DNA from: a virus | Lineage: Duplodnaviria; Heunggongvirae; Uroviricota; Caudoviricetes | Strand: one strand, 5' to 3' | IMG/VR virus record: IMGVR_UViG_2713896785_000023 | DNA: 26,308 bases | Shown here: positions 7,479-13,512 of the stretch, one piece after another | Numbering within the stretch: the first letter of the stretch is position 1 | How the letters are laid out: each line of letters begins with the position of its first letter | Program-made: the position numbers and the translations under genes | The notes under the pieces: generated by a model | What the model saw: the letters and a program-made list of their open reading frames with translations, nothing else | The model's database searches: none | What the model was told of the DNA's origin: nothing

Positions 7479-8879
7479 TCAAAAGAAACGCTCCATCTTA
7501 CTGCTGTCAGTTCGTTTGTTACTGTATCTGCGCGGTCTGGACGGCTGCATTGATGTGGAAAGAACCTGCGCGCTTTCCTGGTCTACAGGCAGAAAATGTC
7601 CGTTATAAAAACGTCGGTAAATCGTCCCCAGAGAACCATTACGTTGCTTCGTGATATTAATTTCTGCGATGCCCCCGGCCTGCGTATCCGGGTTGTACAC
7701 TTCATCCCTGTAAAGCATCAGAATGATGTCAGCATCCGCCTCTATTTCTCCGGAATTTTTCAGGTCTGAGTTCATGGGACGTTTATTTGGTCTGGACTCC
7801 ACACCGCGGGAGAGCTGACTCAGCGCAATCAACGGAAAACCACCGGATTTTGCCAGGCCTTTAAGTCCCTTTGAGATTTCACCCACGGCAAGGTCATGAC
7901 GCCCCGTGGTTCGGGTTTTTATCAGCCCGAGATAATCAACCACCACCAGTGCCGTTTCCGGATGTTTAATCAAATGGTGTTTCGTTGTTGCGCATATCTC
8001 GTCAATGGTCAGGTTCGCCTGGTCCACCATCCAGATATTGCGTCCGGTCATCAGCTCCACCCCCTTAATGAAACGCGCCCAGTCTTCGTCACCAAAGTTA
8101 GAGACAGATTTCAGGCGCGATACAGGCATTCCTCCGGCAGCAGACACCATGCGTTCACCGATCTGAATGTTCGCCATTTCCATTGTGAACAGAAGAACAC
8201 CGCGCCCCTGTTCAGTCACTTTGTCGATGATATCCAGCGCCAGTTCGGTTTTGCCCATTGACGGACGAGCCGCAATAAATACCAGGTCGCCGGGCTCCAT
8301 GCCGCCTGTTTTTGCGTCCAGTTCATCAATACCGGTCATCAACGTCCTGGATTTCTCCAGCCCCTGATTCCGGCATTCAACACGGTCAACCACTTCCGGA
8401 AGCACATCATCAATATGTACCGGCTGAATTGCGCCTTTTTCCATCGACAATGAGGCCATCATGTTTTGAGCATCCTTCAGAGCATCCTCGGCTGCTTCAC
8501 AGGTATGCGCATCACGTAAATTCTGTAATGCTTCGGTCAGTGTTTTTTCTGCATCGCGCAGTGCGGCATTGCGTCGCAGTGCTGCAACATAGTGTTCCAG
8601 AGATGACTTCACCCAGGTTTTACGCCCGGTATCAGTAATCACCGGGGCAAGTTCCGGCATCTCATTGCACAACAGCACAGGATCAATCACGCCGGACACA
8701 CGGGCCTGTCTGCAGATGCCTGTGTATATATCCCGGTACGGTCGTACAGAAAAAACGTCCGCCGGTAGTGTGGCCAGAATATCCATCACTTCCGGATCTG
8801 CCCCACGCAAAAAGAATGCGCCAATAACAGCACCTTCCAGATCATCGTTACGCCAGACCGGGCTTTTCTGGCTGATCAT
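7479..8879 (-). CDS. Replicative DNA helicase, DnaB family (466 aa)
   Basis: Walker A ARPSMGKTELALD, Walker B VVVDYLGL, overall DnaB-like C-terminal domain; start overlaps upstream gene stop (ATGA). Confidence 0.9.
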   Translation of the reverse strand: MISQKSPVWRNDDLEGAVIGAFFLRGADPEVMDILATLPADVFSVRPYRDIYTGICRQARVSGVIDPVLLCNEMPELAPVITDTGRKTWVKSSLEHYVAALRRNAALRDAEKTLTEALQNLRDAHTCEAAEDALKDAQNMMASLSMEKGAIQPVHIDDVLPEVVDRVECRNQGLEKSRTLMTGIDELDAKTGGMEPGDLVFIAARPSMGKTELALDIIDKVTEQGRGVLLFTMEMANIQIGERMVSAAGGMPVSRLKSVSNFGDEDWARFIKGVELMTGRNIWMVDQANLTIDEICATTKHHLIKHPETALVVVDYLGLIKTRTTGRHDLAVGEISKGLKGLAKSGGFPLIALSQLSRGVESRPNKRPMNSDLKNSGEIEADADIILMLYRDEVYNPDTQAGGIAEINITKQRNGSLGTIYRRFYNGHFLPVDQESAQVLSTSMQPSRPRRYSNKRTDSSKMERFF

Positions 8880-10679: not shown

Positions 10680-10893
10680 CTCCCAGGCGTTTAAACATTT
10701 TTCCGGACTGAAACGCCACCAGCGGATAACTCAGGGTATGAGTACGTCCCTGAACCTGGCAGACAACTTTCTGGCTTTCAGTGCTGACTAGGCAAACCCG
10801 CAGAACGTGACCGTTGCTGGTGGCGAACCACTGCCCCACACGGGGGCAACGGTTGTATCGGTGATACAGAGAATTAACGAGGCGGCGAATCAT
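10660..10893 (-). CDS. Hypothetical small protein (77 aa)
   Basis: ORF in the coupled early operon; start overlaps upstream stop (ATGA); end overlaps the O-like start. Confidence 0.45.
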   Translation of the reverse strand: MIRRLVNSLYHRYNRCPRVGQWFATSNGHVLRVCLVSTESQKVVCQVQGRTHTLSYPLVAFQSGKMFKRLGGGYASV

Positions 10894-11123
10894 GGATGTA
10901 CCTCCCGCACATCAGCCATGAGCATTTTGCTGGCTGTTTCCAGCGCCTGATCGGCGCTAATTTGCATAACAGCCAGTGAGTGAGGAACGACAGCCCCGGC
11001 ATATTCTGTTTCACTGGTGGCGTGTTTATGCGCCATATCTGCGATAACAGAGATGTCAATCAGTGCATCCATCAGGGTTTTAATTACCGTAACAGAGGTG
11101 TCTGAATAATGGTTATTACACAT
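10890..11123 (-). CDS. Hypothetical small protein (77 aa)
   Basis: ORF with GGGAGG RBS; start overlaps the stop of the 219-aa gene. Confidence 0.45.
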   Translation of the reverse strand: MCNNHYSDTSVTVIKTLMDALIDISVIADMAHKHATSETEYAGAVVPHSLAVMQISADQALETASKMLMADVREVHP

Positions 11124-11775
11124 GGCGCGCCTCCCATTGATTACGGCGAAAAGCGGTATGATTCACGCTGGTTTCTGCCTCATGGAATGCTTCAATACAG
11201 CTCTCGTAGTACCGCATTGTGCGCAGACTTAACCCAAGCTGAAGCATCATCAGGCCATCAAGGGTGATGTAATAACCTCGCAAAGAGTCACCATAGATGT
11301 GATAAGTACCCGGTATGAAATTGCGGGTGAAAAATTCGCGCGAGCAGTTCAGGTACTCGATTTTGTCGACGATGTTCTGGTGCATGCGCTTGAAATGGCA
11401 GGCTACATGCAGGGAGAAAATAACGGCCTTACCGTTAATAATCTCAATTTTGAGGAATGGGTGGGTAGGGGTGGTTGCCATAGTGACATCCTCATGTGCG
11501 AATTTTGAAAACTCACCACATGGGACGCCAATCACAGAGGTGGTGAGACGTACAGGGTTGGCGTAACCGGTCGCACATGACCCCGGCGCATCTTTCGATG
11601 CCCCTGCACGCCCCACCATAATTTGGATGTGAGGAAACGTGCGCAAAAAAACCGCTGAAGCGCGGTTATGCGCATGTGCGAATTTCAGGACGCCAATCCC
11701 GGCACCCGCTTTATAAGGTGCAGAGACAGTGTAACGTTCCAAAAGTGCAGAATCAATATTCAGGTAGCGGATCAT
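11116..11775 (-). CDS. Hypothetical phage protein, tandem paralog 1 (219 aa)
   Basis: Long ORF; C-terminal ~105 aa nearly identical to the adjacent paralog (MAT(T/V)PT(H/S)PFLKIE..NGKAVIFSLHVACHFKRMHQNIVDKIEYLNCSREFF...). Confidence 0.65.
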   Translation of the reverse strand: MIRYLNIDSALLERYTVSAPYKAGAGIGVLKFAHAHNRASAVFLRTFPHIQIMVGRAGASKDAPGSCATGYANPVRLTTSVIGVPCGEFSKFAHEDVTMATTPTHPFLKIEIINGKAVIFSLHVACHFKRMHQNIVDKIEYLNCSREFFTRNFIPGTYHIYGDSLRGYYITLDGLMMLQLGLSLRTMRYYESCIEAFHEAETSVNHTAFRRNQWEARHV

Positions 11776-12431
11776 AGGTGCACCTCCCGTTGATGACGAC
11801 GGAAAGCGGAATGTACCTGGACGGTTTCAGCTTCATGGAATGCATCAATACAGCTCTCGTAGTACCGCATTGTGCGGAGACTTAACCCAAGCTGAAGCAT
11901 CATCAGGCCATCAAGGGTGATGTAATAACCATGCAAAGAGTCACCATAGATGTGACAAGTACCCGGTATGAAATTACGGGTAAAAAACTCGCGCGAGCAG
12001 TTCAGATACTCGATTTTGTCGACGATGTTCTGGTGCATGCGCTTGAAATGACAGGCAACATGCAGAGAGAAAATAACGGCCTTGCCGTTGACGACTTCGA
12101 TTTTGAGGAATGGGGAAGTTGGGACAGTAGCCATGATGGCAGCCTCCTTGATCGGTGAAATACTTCCACCACCGGAGGTTCCAAGCTCGCTGGTGGCGGA
12201 CTGAACAGGGTTGGAACTACCGGCGATCAAGGAAACCGGCGAGCCTTTCGGCTCCCCTGCCCAGCCCACCATAATTCTGGCGTGCGTGAGCGCGGACGAT
12301 AAAAAAGACGCTGGCGCGTCGTATATCGCCTCGATCAATTCCGGGGTTCCAATCCCGGCACCCGCTTTATAAGGTGCTGGAACAGTGTAACGTCCCGAAA
12401 TTGCAGAATCAATATGTTGGTTGCGGATCAT
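11772..12431 (-). CDS. Hypothetical phage protein, tandem paralog 2 (about 219 aa from ATG; track gives 226 aa from TTG)
   Basis: As above; the N-terminal half shares YTV(S/P)APYKAGAGIG but is otherwise diverged. Confidence 0.65.
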   Translation of the reverse strand: MIRNQHIDSAISGRYTVPAPYKAGAGIGTPELIEAIYDAPASFLSSALTHARIMVGWAGEPKGSPVSLIAGSSNPVQSATSELGTSGGGSISPIKEAAIMATVPTSPFLKIEVVNGKAVIFSLHVACHFKRMHQNIVDKIEYLNCSREFFTRNFIPGTCHIYGDSLHGYYITLDGLMMLQLGLSLRTMRYYESCIDAFHEAETVQVHSAFRRHQREVHL

Positions 12432-12448
12432 TTTGTACCTACTCGCCG

Positions 12449-12658
12449 TCAATCCGCGTTTTCGCGCTGATTCCAGTCATGAACAGCACGTTCTTTCGAA
12501 TCAGGGATCTGGTTTGCGTTACAGCAAGTACATGCGACGTAATAACCATCATCGCCATCCAGAAAATATTTCACCTCAATGAGTTGTACTTCCGGATTTC
12601 CGCAGAACGGGCAAGGTTTCAGATCGACATCACCAGTTACACACGTCTTGGTTTGCAT
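12449..12658 (-). CDS. Lar-family restriction alleviation protein (69 aa)
   Basis: KPCPFCG...C.CC cysteine pattern typical of the Lar family. Confidence 0.65.
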   Translation of the reverse strand: MQTKTCVTGDVDLKPCPFCGNPEVQLIEVKYFLDGDDGYYVACTCCNANQIPDSKERAVHDWNQRENAD

Positions 12659-13512
12659 TATTTGTTCTCCTGTAAAAGATTCGCGAGCTCAGTGTTATGG
12701 GTAAACAGCCCATCCCATGTTTTCTTCATCGGTAGTTCACCGTTCAGATAATGGCGATATAACCAGGCGGCACCTTTTTTCTTCAGGAGTGGTTTGAAAA
12801 TCTCGCGCATTTCCCCGTTTTCCTGCTCAACCTGCCCAGAACGCTCAGTCAGGTATTGGTCACGTGCATACGCTTTTACACGCCAGCGCGGATACATAGC
12901 CTCCGGACGGTCGTCATACAGCCAGTTACGCTCTTCAAGGAACGCATTAATCTGACGAGTGTTTACACCGTTGAGCTGTTTGCAGAACTGCACAGGAGTG
13001 ATGCCATCGGCGAGATGGCTTTCGAGTTTGCTGATGTAGCGAGCCTGACGCTCTGCATACCCGAGAGCAAGGCGTTCGGATTTTTTGGCTTCAATCCACG
13101 CTTCAGCAGCAGCGATCGGATCGTCAAAGTCTGGAATAGTGTTTGAAGAAGGCGTTGCTTTACGAAAATACGCCTGCTCCATTTTTTCGAAGAACGACCA
13201 GGCCTCGTCTGTATCGACGATTTTTGACATGCGGGCAGCGCCGCGTTCTGTCCAGAGGACAAGTGATGTTGTATGTTTATTAACCGACTCGCTAAAAGAT
13301 AGTCGGAAAGATTTCAGCTCATCACCGCTGATTTTGAAAAAGTGTTTACCCTCAACGAAACGATCTTCGTTTCGAATGTAGTTCTGTTGTATACGGATTG
13401 GCGTTGTTCCATATCCCGCCGCCAACGTTTCGGTGGTAACTACACGTACTCCCTGCCACTCAATAACTGGCAAGTTTTCAGGGTTGACTAATTTTTGTTT
13501 ATTGATCATCAT
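12658..13512 (-). CDS. Phage antirepressor-like protein (AntA/ORF6N-type N-domain + KilA-C-type C-domain)
   Basis: N-terminal PVIEWQGVRVVTTETLAAGYG...FFK and C-terminal ITPVQFCKQLNGVNTRQINAFLEERNWLY resemble antirepressor domain families (memory-based). Confidence 0.6.
   Translation of the reverse strand: MMINKQKLVNPENLPVIEWQGVRVVTTETLAAGYGTTPIRIQQNYIRNEDRFVEGKHFFKISGDELKSFRLSFSESVNKHTTSLVLWTERGAARMSKIVDTDEAWSFFEKMEQAYFRKATPSSNTIPDFDDPIAAAEAWIEAKKSERLALGYAERQARYISKLESHLADGITPVQFCKQLNGVNTRQINAFLEERNWLYDDRPEAMYPRWRVKAYARDQYLTERSGQVEQENGEMREIFKPLLKKKGAAWLYRHYLNGELPMKKTWDGLFTHNTELANLLQENK

What the first reader, a model, noticed from the sequence alone, without database searches (positions are those of the whole stretch)
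11116..12431. Tandem paralogous early genes with near-identical 3' halves and diverged 5' halves
The two ORFs share an almost identical C-terminal ~105 aa, and their DNA is nearly identical over about 300 bp (for example 11140-11320 versus 11800-11980), while the N-terminal halves retain only short shared motifs (YTVxAPYKAGAGIG). This suggests recent duplication or gene conversion of an effector-like C-domain with variable N-terminal domains. They sit in the early operon just after Lar and the antirepressor, a region where phages commonly carry host-takeover or anti-defence genes. It could also be an assembly collapse artefact.
Basis: seen in the sequence. Interest (0 to 1): 0.55.

Follow-up and report, generated by a model that had tools for sequence, protein, structure and literature searches.

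The report
Tandem antisense-RNA switches, not protein domains
The two "paralogous genes" are two copies of a known phage riboregulator cassette (IsrK-like leader, C4 antisense RNA, then a small Rha-type gene); the "diverged N-terminal halves" are the RNA genes, and each copy carries its own base-pairing address.

Summary
Two adjacent minus-strand ORFs (11116-11775 and 11772-12431) share a 92%-identical 3' part and a diverged 5' part. The interpretation does not hold.

Each 5' half is a non-coding regulatory cassette. It consists of a promoter-like element, an IsrK/c4-a1b1-type leader RNA with an intrinsic terminator, and a C4 antisense RNA. All four Rfam hits are above gathering score. Then come target sites a2 and b2, with b2 overlapping a Shine-Dalgarno sequence 10 nt before an internal ATG, the same geometry as phage P1 c4-icd.

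The real genes are about 120-aa stand-alone Rha-domain proteins (11116-11481 and 11772-12134). The two C4 RNAs have different a'/b' recognition sequences. Each is perfectly complementary to its own targets and not to the other's, so the units appear independently addressed, like heteroimmune P1 and P7.

The copies are old paralogues (dS about 0.3, dN/dS about 0.1). Unit 1's ORF is 98.9% identical to a unit in another genome. This is neither a recent duplication nor an assembly artefact.

Arrays of 2-3 units recur in about 10% of related viral loci. The Pfam/PGAP "Ash" label matches the translated RNA cassette.

This is a known kind of system in a little-described tandem arrangement. Interest is moderate.

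The parts
12384..12412 (-). Unit 2 promoter-like element: -35 TTGATT (12412-12407), 17-nt spacer, -10 TACACT (12389-12384). It sits 6 nt before isrK +1.
   Evidence: Coordinates. It occupies the same position as the Gifsy-1 isrK promoter region (TTGACA-18-TATATT). The TAcAcT hexamer is the best-conserved upstream block in 79 distinct units. The generic promoter scan did not call it, at 8 of 12 matches. Inferred, not shown.
12301..12377 (-). Unit 2 IsrK-like leader RNA. a1 UUGGAAC lies in a hairpin loop (12352-12346). b1 UGAUCGAGG lies at 12337-12329 and pairs with b' through 7 Watson-Crick and 2 G-U pairs. The terminator hairpin is at 12320-12307, followed by U6.
   Evidence: Rfam isrK 63.9 bits against gathering 50. 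Terminator. Sites.
12189..12276 (-). Unit 2 C4 antisense RNA. b' is the hairpin-2 loop UCCUUGAUCG (12233-12224). a' is the junction GUUCCAA (12217-12211). The 3' end reads ...GCCACCA.
   Evidence: Rfam C4 84.6 bits against gathering 45. Structure and covariation.
12132..12184 (-). Unit 2 target and translation-initiation region: a2 UUGGAAC (12184-12178), b2 CGAUCAAGGA (12154-12145) overlapping the SD AAGGAGG (12149-12143), then ATG 12134-12132.
   Evidence: 10/10 Watson-Crick complementarity of b' to b2. Only 2 of 20000 shuffles reach it.
11772..12134 (-). Unit 2 cargo gene: a 120-aa stand-alone Rha-domain protein ('Rha-short').
   Evidence: Pfam Phage_pRha 25.9 bits and phrog_995 at 5e-54. 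Other gene callers-121 aa proteins from this start (P0002, P0003, P0007). Coding signature.
11728..11756 (-). Unit 1 promoter-like element: -35 TTGATT (11756-11751) and -10 TACACT (11733-11728).
   Evidence: Inferred, as for unit 2.
11645..11721 (-). Unit 1 IsrK-like leader RNA: a1 UUGGCGU (11696-11690), b1 UCGCACAUG (11681-11673), terminator 11667-11650 followed by U7.
   Evidence: Rfam isrK 62.3 bits against gathering 50. Terminator. b' to b1 is a 9-nt run, reached by 12 of 20000 shuffles.
11536..11623 (-). Unit 1 C4 antisense RNA: b' UCAUGUGCGA (11580-11571), a' ACGCCAA (11564-11558). The 3' end reads ...CACCACC.
   Evidence: Rfam C4 75.1 bits against gathering 45. Structure.
11479..11531 (-). 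Unit 1 target and translation-initiation region: a2 UUGGCGU (11531-11525), b2 UCGCACAUGA (11501-11492) overlapping the SD GAGGA (11493-11489), then ATG 11481-11479.
   Evidence: 10/10 complementarity of b' to b2. None of 20000 shuffles reach it.
11116..11481 (-). Unit 1 cargo gene: a 121-aa stand-alone Rha-domain protein. Its stop overlaps the ATG (11123) of the next 77-aa ORF.
   Evidence: Pfam Phage_pRha 30.0 bits against cutoff 29.9 and phrog_995 at 1.7e-57. 98.9% nt identity to a unit in L003.

Best explanation
The interval holds two tandem copies of a phage 'immI-type' riboregulator module.

Each copy reads, 5' to 3' on the minus strand: its own promoter-like element; an IsrK/c4-a1b1-type leader RNA carrying decoy sites a1 and b1 and an intrinsic terminator; a C4 antisense RNA; target sites a2 and b2, with b2 overlapping the Shine-Dalgarno sequence; and a roughly 120-aa Rha-domain gene.

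Inferred mechanism, by homology with P1/P7 c4 and Gifsy-1 IsrK:
- Transcripts that read through the leader terminator are processed to release C4.
- C4's a' junction and b' loop pair with a2 and b2 and occlude the ribosome-binding site. The Rha-short gene stays silent in the lysogen. By polarity, the tightly coupled downstream genes may be silenced too.
- Short IsrK-like transcripts carry a1 and b1. They compete for C4 and for the alternative fold, and so switch translation on.

The two units have different a'/b' sequences. Each is matched only by its own targets, so they look like two independently addressed channels, comparable to heteroimmune P1 and P7.

The long 219-aa 'ash family' ORFs are a reading frame that stays open across the RNA genes. 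They are not two-domain proteins.
For: Shown here:
1. Rfam hits are above gathering score for isrK and C4 in both units.
2. In 27 C4 alleles, 100% of cells are paired and 13 pairs show compensatory changes. The slid-partner controls give 33-50% paired.
3. The b' loop is 10/10 complementary to a site overlapping the SD in each unit (0 and 2 of 20000 shuffles). The a' junction has 7/7 matches both upstream and downstream. Cross-unit runs are 4 nt or less.
4. Order and spacing match the annotated P1 locus: a1-b1-c4-a2-b2-SD-ATG, with the b2 end 10 nt before the ATG.
5. Complementarity covaries across the family. The loop matches its own downstream region with a run of 8 nt or more in 99 of 113 units, against 11 of 1130 mismatched controls. 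The target-to-start distance is 9-11 nt in 84 of 99 units.
6. The coding signature is present only in the 3' ORF: differences by codon position are 5/5/21 there against 39/32/31 in the 5' half, and dN/dS is 0.11-0.13.
7. The same cassette precedes unrelated cargo genes, and in 10 of 25 alleles an in-frame stop separates it from the cargo ORF.
8. In Gifsy-1, 'orf45/STnc1160' is a C4-family RNA preceded by isrK. In P4, the historical 'cI protein' ORF contains the CI RNA and is what Pfam Phage_ASH matches.

From the literature: IsrK in trans activates translation of the downstream antirepressor (PMC4825925). C4 is needed for full repression of ant in P1 (PMC8198154, citing Citron & Schuster 1990).
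Against: - There are no expression data for this locus. The promoters, C4 processing and repression are all inferred by homology.
- The generic promoter scan did not call the proposed promoters.
- The frame through the RNA genes is unusually open. It is stop-free in 39 of 43 C4 alleles, against 22-23 of 43 for the other frames. None of 39 variable loops has a stop in that frame, where 3.9 are expected. Here it is in frame with the cargo ORF. Translation across the cassette is therefore likely to matter, as shown for orf45 in Gifsy-1, and longer protein isoforms cannot be excluded.
- Unit 2's b1 decoy pairs only with the help of two G-U pairs.
- The function of the Rha-short cargo is unknown.
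Confidence: 0.8

Rival explanations
1. One reading: two paralogous two-domain proteins of 219 aa. A recently duplicated or converted effector-like C-domain is fused to variable N-terminal domains.
For: Both long ORFs are open. PGAP annotates them as 'ash family protein'. Pfam Phage_ASH scores 47.7 and 58.6 bits. The PHROG profiles include the extension. The frame is stop-poor across alleles.
Against: The N-halves coincide with four above-threshold Rfam RNA hits that show covariation. They show no codon-position bias. An internal SD and ATG sit at conserved spacing. The annotated ATGs lie upstream of the unit promoters. The cassette precedes unrelated cargo, and in 10 of 25 alleles an in-frame stop separates it from the cargo ORF. 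dS is about 0.3, and closer orthologues exist elsewhere. P4's 'Ash/cI protein' region is an RNA gene.
Confidence: 0.05
2. Dual use. The RNA cassette is real, but ribosomes also read through it. They could start at the orf45-like AUG at the 5' end of C4 (11619 / 12272) or arrive from the upstream gene via the ATGA overlap at 11772-11775. This would unfold C4 and the SD hairpin and yield N-terminally extended Rha proteins. It would act as a bypass or activation route rather than as a folded 'Ash domain'.
For: orf45 in Gifsy-1 is in this same frame. It is translated there and is required for AnrP translation (PMC4825925). Stops are avoided in this frame, including in the hypervariable loop. In the window this frame is fused in frame to the cargo. 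Database ORFs run across 2-3 units, at 344 and 555 aa.
Against: There is no obvious SD before the AUG at the 5' end of C4. The alleles are phylogenetically related, so the stop counts are not independent. The loop test is modest, at 0 observed against 3.9 expected. In P1 the mature c4 5' end lies inside this AUG.
Confidence: 0.3
3. P4-type mechanism. The C4 RNAs act mainly by causing premature transcription termination or polarity on the downstream operon, including the replication genes, rather than by blocking translation of Rha-short as such.
For: P4 CI RNA belongs to the same Rfam family and sits after an isrK-like seqA element. [quoted passage not shown] The units lie inside a tightly overlapping operon upstream of the replication genes. 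Hairpin-plus-T-run motifs lie about 45 nt into each cargo ORF.
Against: b2 overlaps the SD exactly as in P1, which is the hallmark of a translational block. The intragenic hairpins are weak, and the scan found 5 terminator-like sites against 2.7 expected.
Confidence: 0.25
4. Assembly artefact: a single module mis-assembled as two.
For: None found beyond the repeat itself.
Against: The copies differ at 8% of ORF positions and at 35-54% of positions in the regulatory part. The locus is in a closed chromosome. Arrays of 2-3 units recur in independent genomes and viral contigs.
Confidence: 0.01

Closest known systems
Phage P1/P7 immI operon (c4 antisense RNA - icd - ant1/2)
   Same: It has the same Rfam family. 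It has the same element order, a1-b1-c4-a2-b2-SD-ATG. In both, a' lies in the junction and b' in the hairpin-2 loop, and the b2 end is 10 nt before the start codon. The leader has a terminator-like hairpin. The two window units differ in a'/b' with matching target changes, which is the principle reported for P1/P7 heteroimmunity (my own knowledge of Citron & Schuster 1990; the paper itself was not read here).
   Different: The cargo is a 120-aa Rha-domain protein, not Icd plus Ant. No C1-type operator was identified. There are two modules in tandem inside a lambdoid early-right operon instead of one stand-alone operon. An AUG at the 5' end of C4 opens a frame that runs in frame into the cargo.
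Gifsy-1 isrK - orf45 (STnc1160) - anrP locus (Hershko-Shalev et al. 2016, PMC4825925)
   Same: It has the same isrK family leader with promoter and terminator, followed by a C4-family RNA, then an SD overlapped by the loop complement (ATCACCG+GAGG), then a cargo gene. The orf45 reading frame is the 'Ash' frame of the window.
   Different: In Gifsy-1, orf45 stops at an AUGA overlap with anrP. In the window the frame continues into the cargo. AnrP is an ORF6N-type protein. It resembles the window's uncontrolled antirepressor at 12658-13512 rather than Rha-short, with blastp E values of 0.8 and 2.2 for the two Rha-short ORFs. Gifsy-1 has a single copy.
Satellite phage P4 immunity (seqA - CI RNA - seqC - epsilon)
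   Same: It has an isrK-like element (8615-8692) and a C4-family CI RNA (8420-8507), followed by a derepression gene. The old 'cI protein' ORF over the RNA is what Pfam Phage_ASH matches.
   Different: The IsrK paper describes P4 CI as causing premature transcription termination (PMC4825925). P4's cargo is epsilon (PF25738), not Rha.
Pfam PF10554 Phage_ASH / PGAP 'ash family protein'
   Same: Both window ORFs match it at aa 15-104 and 15-106.
   Different: The matched residues correspond to nt 11733-11464. That is the -10 element, isrK, C4, a2/b2 and the SD. There is no protein-level selection signature there. I read the 'domain' as a translated RNA cassette. [quoted passage not shown]

Membership tests
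C4 antisense RNA (Rfam RF01695; P1/P7 c4, P4 CI) | Covariance-model score at or above the curated gathering score | tested here: met
   84.6 bits (12189-12276) and 75.1 bits (11536-11623) against gathering 45.
C4 antisense RNA (Rfam RF01695; P1/P7 c4, P4 CI) | Long closing helix enclosing two hairpins, supported by compensatory changes | tested here: met
   27 alleles including both window copies: 100% of 729 cells paired; 13 pairs changed on both sides; slid-partner controls 33-50% paired. Helix 3 is invariant because the search pattern fixed it.
C4 antisense RNA (Rfam RF01695; P1/P7 c4, P4 CI) | Exposed a' and b' segments complementary to a1/b1 upstream and a2/b2 downstream on the same strand | tested here: met
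   Unit 1: b' matches over 10 nt downstream and 9 nt upstream; a' matches over 7 nt at both. Unit 2: b' matches over 10 nt downstream, and upstream only with 2 G-U pairs; a' matches over 7 nt at both. Family-wide: 99 of 113 units against 11 of 1130 controls.
C4 antisense RNA (Rfam RF01695; P1/P7 c4, P4 CI) | b2 overlaps the ribosome-binding site of the first downstream ORF | tested here: met
   The b2 end is 10 nt before the ATG in both units, as in P1 icd. The distance is 9-11 nt in 84 of 99 related units.
C4 antisense RNA (Rfam RF01695; P1/P7 c4, P4 CI) | Released from a longer transcript by RNase P; represses the cargo in vivo | not testable with these tools
   Only the sequence is consistent (AAUUAU|GGUGG 5' context and a CCACC(A) 3' end, as in P1). 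C4 of P1 and P7 is listed among the non-tRNA substrates of RNase P (PMC2190699).
isrK / c4-a1b1 leader RNA (RF01394 / RF03163) | Covariance-model score at or above gathering | tested here: met
   isrK scores 63.9 and 62.3 bits against gathering 50. The related c4-a1b1 model scores only 22-23 bits against 46.7, so membership rests on the isrK model.
isrK / c4-a1b1 leader RNA (RF01394 / RF03163) | Own promoter and intrinsic terminator giving a short RNA plus read-through | tested here: inconclusive
   Terminator hairpins with U-runs were found in both units. The promoter TTGATT-17-TACACT is positionally homologous to Gifsy-1 and its -10 hexamer is conserved, but it falls below the scan threshold. 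There are no transcript data.
isrK / c4-a1b1 leader RNA (RF01394 / RF03163) | Small upstream ORF (orf45) ending in an AUGA overlap with the cargo start (translational coupling) | tested here: not met
   The AUG at the 5' end of C4 is present (11619, 12272), but the frame runs on in frame into the cargo with no stop. In Gifsy-1 the AUGA overlap is present.
Pfam Phage_ASH (PF10554) as a protein domain | Profile match above cutoff | tested here: met
   47.7 and 58.6 bits against cutoff 26.
Pfam Phage_ASH (PF10554) as a protein domain | Evidence that the matched region evolves as a protein | tested here: not met
   Differences by codon position are 39/32/31, against 5/5/21 in the adjacent true ORF. 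The region coincides with RNA genes. The P4 match overlies the CI RNA.
Phage_pRha (PF09669) regulatory / antirepressor proteins | Rha domain match | tested here: met
   Unit 1 scores 30.0 bits against cutoff 29.9. Unit 2 scores 25.9 bits, below cutoff. Both are supported by phrog_995 (1.7e-57), phrog_518 'Rha-like' (7.8e-14) and 1115 relatives at E<=1e-3.
Phage_pRha (PF09669) regulatory / antirepressor proteins | C-terminal partner domain (ANT, P22_AR_C or similar) as in full-length Rha/antirepressors | tested here: not met
   The proteins end about 15 aa after the Rha domain. Related long forms of 181-187 aa have an extra C-terminal part.
P1 immI operon | Cargo Icd plus Ant1/2 under a C1 operator | tested here: not met
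   Pfam and PHROGs give only Rha-type and transcription-regulator hits for the cargo. A C1-type operator was not searched for.

The most novel reading that the evidence does not exclude
Tandem arrays of 2-3 IsrK/C4 switches act as a multi-channel immunity and derepression device. Each unit has a distinct (a', b') address and drives a conserved stand-alone Rha-domain protein. A prophage could then keep several independently triggerable regulators silent, and could repress the matching modules of several classes of superinfecting phages. The stop-free frame through the RNA genes could let ribosomes coming from the upstream early operon override the antisense block during lytic growth.
Probability: 0.2. 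Interest if true: 0.6.

Novelty: new variant of a known kind. Interest (0 to 1): 0.4.

Why it matters
1. Annotation. Here the "ash family protein" and Pfam Phage_ASH labels match a translated riboregulator cassette. The query matched 1337 of 5426 complete E. coli genomes, and the cassette matched 280 phage records. Several papers treat "Ash" as a protein domain of unknown function. The real genes here are about 120 aa.

2. Biology. C4/IsrK switches control antirepressors and prophage induction, and many of the matching phage records are Stx-converting phages. Arrays with different addresses suggest that heteroimmunity at the RNA level is combinatorial and modular.

3. Cargo. The same cassette fronts very different genes, including a Tad2-like anti-Thoeris gene and a P4 epsilon-like derepressor. 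It could therefore serve as a signpost for conditionally expressed phage genes.

Tried and rejected
- AlphaFold2 on Rha-short with 7 close sequences gave a mean pLDDT of 53. That is too poor for a fold search, so none was run.
- A PDB sequence search found nothing at E<=10.
- The word-indexed homologue search returned only 27 close E. coli hits. The exhaustive search showed a large but distant Rha family.
- RNAduplex energies on loop segments did not separate cognate from non-cognate pairs cleanly, because stem bases were included. I relied on contiguous complementarity with shuffles instead.
- The generic promoter scan did not call the proposed unit promoters.
- The C4 pattern scan of genome contigs gave mostly chance hits in high-GC genomes. 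Only 38 of 120 were confirmed by nhmmer, mainly Pseudomonas and Enterobacterales.
- The P1 icd paper and the P1 genome paper were not held. I used the annotated P1 record instead.
- I considered AnrP as a homologue of the cargo and rejected it: blastp E values are 0.8 and 2.2 for the two Rha-short ORFs.
- I considered a tRNA or tmRNA-like element because of the CCACCA ends. ARAGORN found none.
Full report
**Observation**

The minus strand carries two adjacent ORFs. One is 11116-11775 (219 aa). The other is 11772-12452, which is 219 aa when read from the ATG at 12431. Repeat finding gives 11124-11423 versus 11777-12076 at 91% over 300 nt, and 11645-11775 versus 12301-12431 at 76%.

A full alignment with a per-segment count shows a mosaic:
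- promoter region and first hairpin: 81-89% identical
- rest of the leader: 59%
- spacer: 48%
- next 88 nt: 65%
- 54 nt before an internal ATG: 46%
- ORF codons 11-105: 92%

The neighbours are a Lar protein and an ORF6N+ANT antirepressor. These lie downstream of a cro-like and cI-like gene pair. The window is 100% identical to the closed chromosome of E. coli 2013C-3264, where both ORFs are annotated as 'ash family protein'.

**What the 5' halves are**

Rfam at gathering threshold finds, in each unit, an isrK RNA (12301-12377 at 63.9 bits; 11645-11721 at 62.3 bits; gathering 50). It also finds a C4 antisense RNA in each (12189-12276 at 84.6 bits; 11536-11623 at 75.1 bits; gathering 45). All four are on the minus strand.

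These four RNAs, together with the promoter-like element and the target sites described below, fill the 'N-terminal halves'. The Pfam Phage_ASH hit (aa 15-104) maps to nt 11733-11464. That is exactly this block.

Between the two copies, differences in the 5' block are spread evenly over codon positions (39/32/31). In the 3' ORF they fall 5/5/21, with 17 synonymous and 8 non-synonymous codon changes. The Nei-Gojobori estimate is dS 0.32-0.36 and dN/dS 0.11-0.13. Only the 3' part behaves as a protein-coding sequence.

Each 3' part begins at an internal ATG preceded by a Shine-Dalgarno sequence. Unit 1 has GAGGA-N7-ATG at 11481. Unit 2 has AAGGAGG-N8-ATG at 12134. Other gene callers already-121 aa proteins from these starts (P0002, P0003, P0007).

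**Anatomy compared with P1**

The annotated P1 record gives the reference layout: promoter, a1, b1, c4, a2, b2, then icd. In P1, a' is the single-stranded junction and b' is the loop of the second hairpin. The 3' end of b2 lies 10 nt before the icd ATG.

The window units have the same layout.
- Unit 1: b' UCAUGUGCGA (11580-11571) pairs 10/10 with b2 (11501-11492), which overlaps the SD. It pairs 9/9 with b1 (11681-11673). a' ACGCCAA pairs 7/7 with a2 (11531-11525) and with a1 (11696-11690).
- Unit 2: b' UCCUUGAUCG (12233-12224) pairs 10/10 with b2 (12154-12145), inside AAGGAGG. It pairs with b1 (12337-12329) through 7 Watson-Crick and 2 G-U pairs. a' GUUCCAA pairs 7/7 with a2 (12184-12178) and with a1 (12352-12346).

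The b'-b2 matches are reached by 0 and 2 of 20000 shuffles. The a' matches are reached by about 1% of shuffles each. Cross-unit runs never exceed 4 nt. Both leaders end in a hairpin plus U-run that the terminator scan detected.

Upstream of each isrK +1 lies TTGATT-17-TACACT. This is positionally homologous to the Gifsy-1 isrK promoter region, and its -10 hexamer is the best-conserved upstream block in 79 distinct units. The generic scan did not call it, so the promoter is inferred.

**Family-wide support**

A C4 core pattern retrieved 120 viral contigs. These gave 113 distinct units.
- The hairpin-2 loop has a Watson-Crick run of 8 nt or more to its own downstream region in 99 units. Only 11 of 1130 mismatched pairings reach that.
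- The target ends 9-11 nt before a start codon in 84 of 99 cases.
- On 27 alleles, the Rfam C4 structure is 100% paired, with 13 pairs changed on both sides. Slid-partner controls give 33-50% paired.

The downstream cargo varies. Rha-like proteins are the largest group (44 units, 12 C4 alleles). There are also several unrelated 59-94 aa proteins, a Tad2-like protein, a P4-epsilon-like 'Derepression' protein and a BRO-N protein. In 10 of 25 alleles, in-frame stops separate the cassette from the cargo ORF. So the 'N-terminal domain' is not an obligatory part of the cargo protein.

**Known relatives**

In Gifsy-1, Rfam places isrK at 34240-34316 and a C4-family RNA at 34131-34214. The latter is the region called orf45/STnc1160. 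The loop complement plus GAGG sits before the anrP start.

Hershko-Shalev et al. showed the following (PMC4825925):
- Transcripts read through the IsrK terminator.
- The long RNA is translationally silent.
- IsrK supplied in trans activates it.
- Translation of orf45 is needed for AnrP.
- AnrP induces the prophage.

In P4, the C4-family CI RNA (8420-8507) lies inside the historical 'cI gene product' ORF. That ORF is what Pfam Phage_ASH matches (aa 22-85). An isrK-like element lies upstream and epsilon lies downstream.

[quoted passage not shown] Other papers still treat Ash as a protein domain of unknown function (PMC8951638).

**Mechanism (inferred)**

Each unit is an immI-type switch. C4 is released from read-through transcripts and pairs with a2 and b2 to mask the SD of Rha-short. 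P1/P7 C4 is listed among the non-tRNA substrates of RNase P (PMC2190699), and the 5' AAUUAU|GGUGG context and the CCACC(A) 3' end are conserved. Short IsrK-like RNAs carrying a1 and b1 counteract this block.

The units sit inside an operon with overlapping stop and start codons that leads to the replication genes. Polarity on downstream genes is therefore possible, as in P4. This is listed as a rival or complement to the translational-block model.

The two units differ in both a' and b', with matching target changes. I infer that they are independently addressed. This is the same principle reported for P1/P7 heteroimmunity (from my own knowledge of Citron & Schuster 1990; the paper was not read here).

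**The open frame**

The frame through C4 is the orf45 frame. It is stop-free in 39 of 43 alleles, against 22-23 of 43 for the other two frames. None of the 39 distinct variable loops carries a stop in it. Shuffling predicts 3.9, and the other frames have 14 and 7.

In the window this frame runs in frame into the cargo. Some database ORFs run across 2-3 units. This suggests that translation across the cassette matters, as shown for orf45 in Gifsy-1. It does not make the cassette a protein domain. I keep this as a partly compatible rival.

**Age and recurrence**

Unit 1's ORF is 98.9% identical to the second unit of L003 (another E. coli) and 98.6% identical to a unit of L021. It is only 91.9% identical to unit 2 of the window. 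With dS of about 0.3, the paralogues predate the divergence of these phages.

nhmmer finds two C4 hits or more in 12 of 121 loci with hits. Ten of these (window included) are close tandem arrays with a spacing of 360-870 nt. In all ten, no two units share both a' and b', although some share one of them. A common pattern is one or two Rha-short units followed by a Rha-long unit of 181-187 aa. The window lacks the long unit. Doublets also occur in Pseudomonas and Pantoea genomes.

**The cargo**

Rha-short is a complete Rha domain plus about 15 residues. It has no C-terminal partner domain.
- Close relatives are few: 6 clusters below 1e-30.
- Distant Rha proteins are many: 1115 at E<=1e-3.
- The structure prediction was too poor to use.
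- No solved homologue was found.
- It is not homologous to AnrP, which resembles the window's ORF6N antirepressor instead.

Its function is unknown. From its position and its regulation I expect a lysis-lysogeny regulator, but this is only an inference.

**Verdict**

This is a known kind of system (C4/IsrK riboregulator with cargo) in a tandem, differently addressed arrangement. I did not find that arrangement described in the papers searched. It comes with a useful annotation correction. Interest is moderate.

Noticed in passing
window 2123-2860: Two tandem copies of the sRNA STnc100 (2184-2392 and 2647-2860, minus strand; 175 and 191 bits). An AgvB anti-GcvB sRNA lies on the opposite strand at 2123-2182, at 56.6 bits, right at its gathering score of 56. 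This is another tandem RNA duplication in the same prophage.
   Followed up: no
L048 and L111 (IMG/VR contigs), ORF just downstream of the C4 unit: An 85-aa cargo gene under a C4/b2-SD switch matches Pfam Tad2-like (Thoeris anti-defence 2) at 31.6 bits against cutoff 25. An anti-defence gene seems to be placed under antisense-RNA control.
   Followed up: partly
L090 (IMG/VR contig), cargo ORF of 79 aa: The cargo matches the P4 epsilon 'Derepression' family PF25738 at 25 bits, just below its cutoff of 27. This mirrors the P4 CI RNA-epsilon arrangement.
   Followed up: partly
window 11421-11437 and 12075-12089 (minus strand): A hairpin followed by a T-rich run (AACGGYAAGGCCGTT ATTTTCTC) lies about 45 nt inside each Rha-short ORF. 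It could be an attenuator used when the ORF is not translated, or a chance match. The region gave 5 terminator-like sites against 2.7 expected.
   Followed up: no
window 11736-11742 (minus strand): There is an extra copy of UUGGAAC, the a-type target of unit 2's C4. It sits in the spacer of unit 1's promoter-like element, so it would be present on read-through transcripts from unit 2. It may be chance, since about 0.2 such 7-mers are expected in 3 kb.
   Followed up: no
window 10714-10723 (minus strand): A 10-nt perfect complement (GCUGGUGGCG) to the 3' end of unit 2's C4 (CGCCACCAGC) lies inside the downstream 77-aa ORF.
   Followed up: no
L001 1-126 (NZ_CP027544.1 1661841-1662187): The prophage's antiterminator Q gene is annotated as frameshifted. 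The prophage carrying these switches may be defective for late gene expression.
   Followed up: no
window 12658-13512 (minus strand): The ORF6N+ANT antirepressor directly after cro resembles Gifsy-1 AnrP by eye, sharing motifs such as LWTERGAAR (no alignment was run). No C4/isrK switch lies in front of it. In this phage the AnrP-like gene and the riboswitch-like control appear to have been separated.
   Followed up: partly
P0028 (555 aa) and P0029 (344 aa): These database proteins contain two Rha-short matches each. In some genomes, whole arrays of 2-3 units are read as a single continuous ORF.
   Followed up: no
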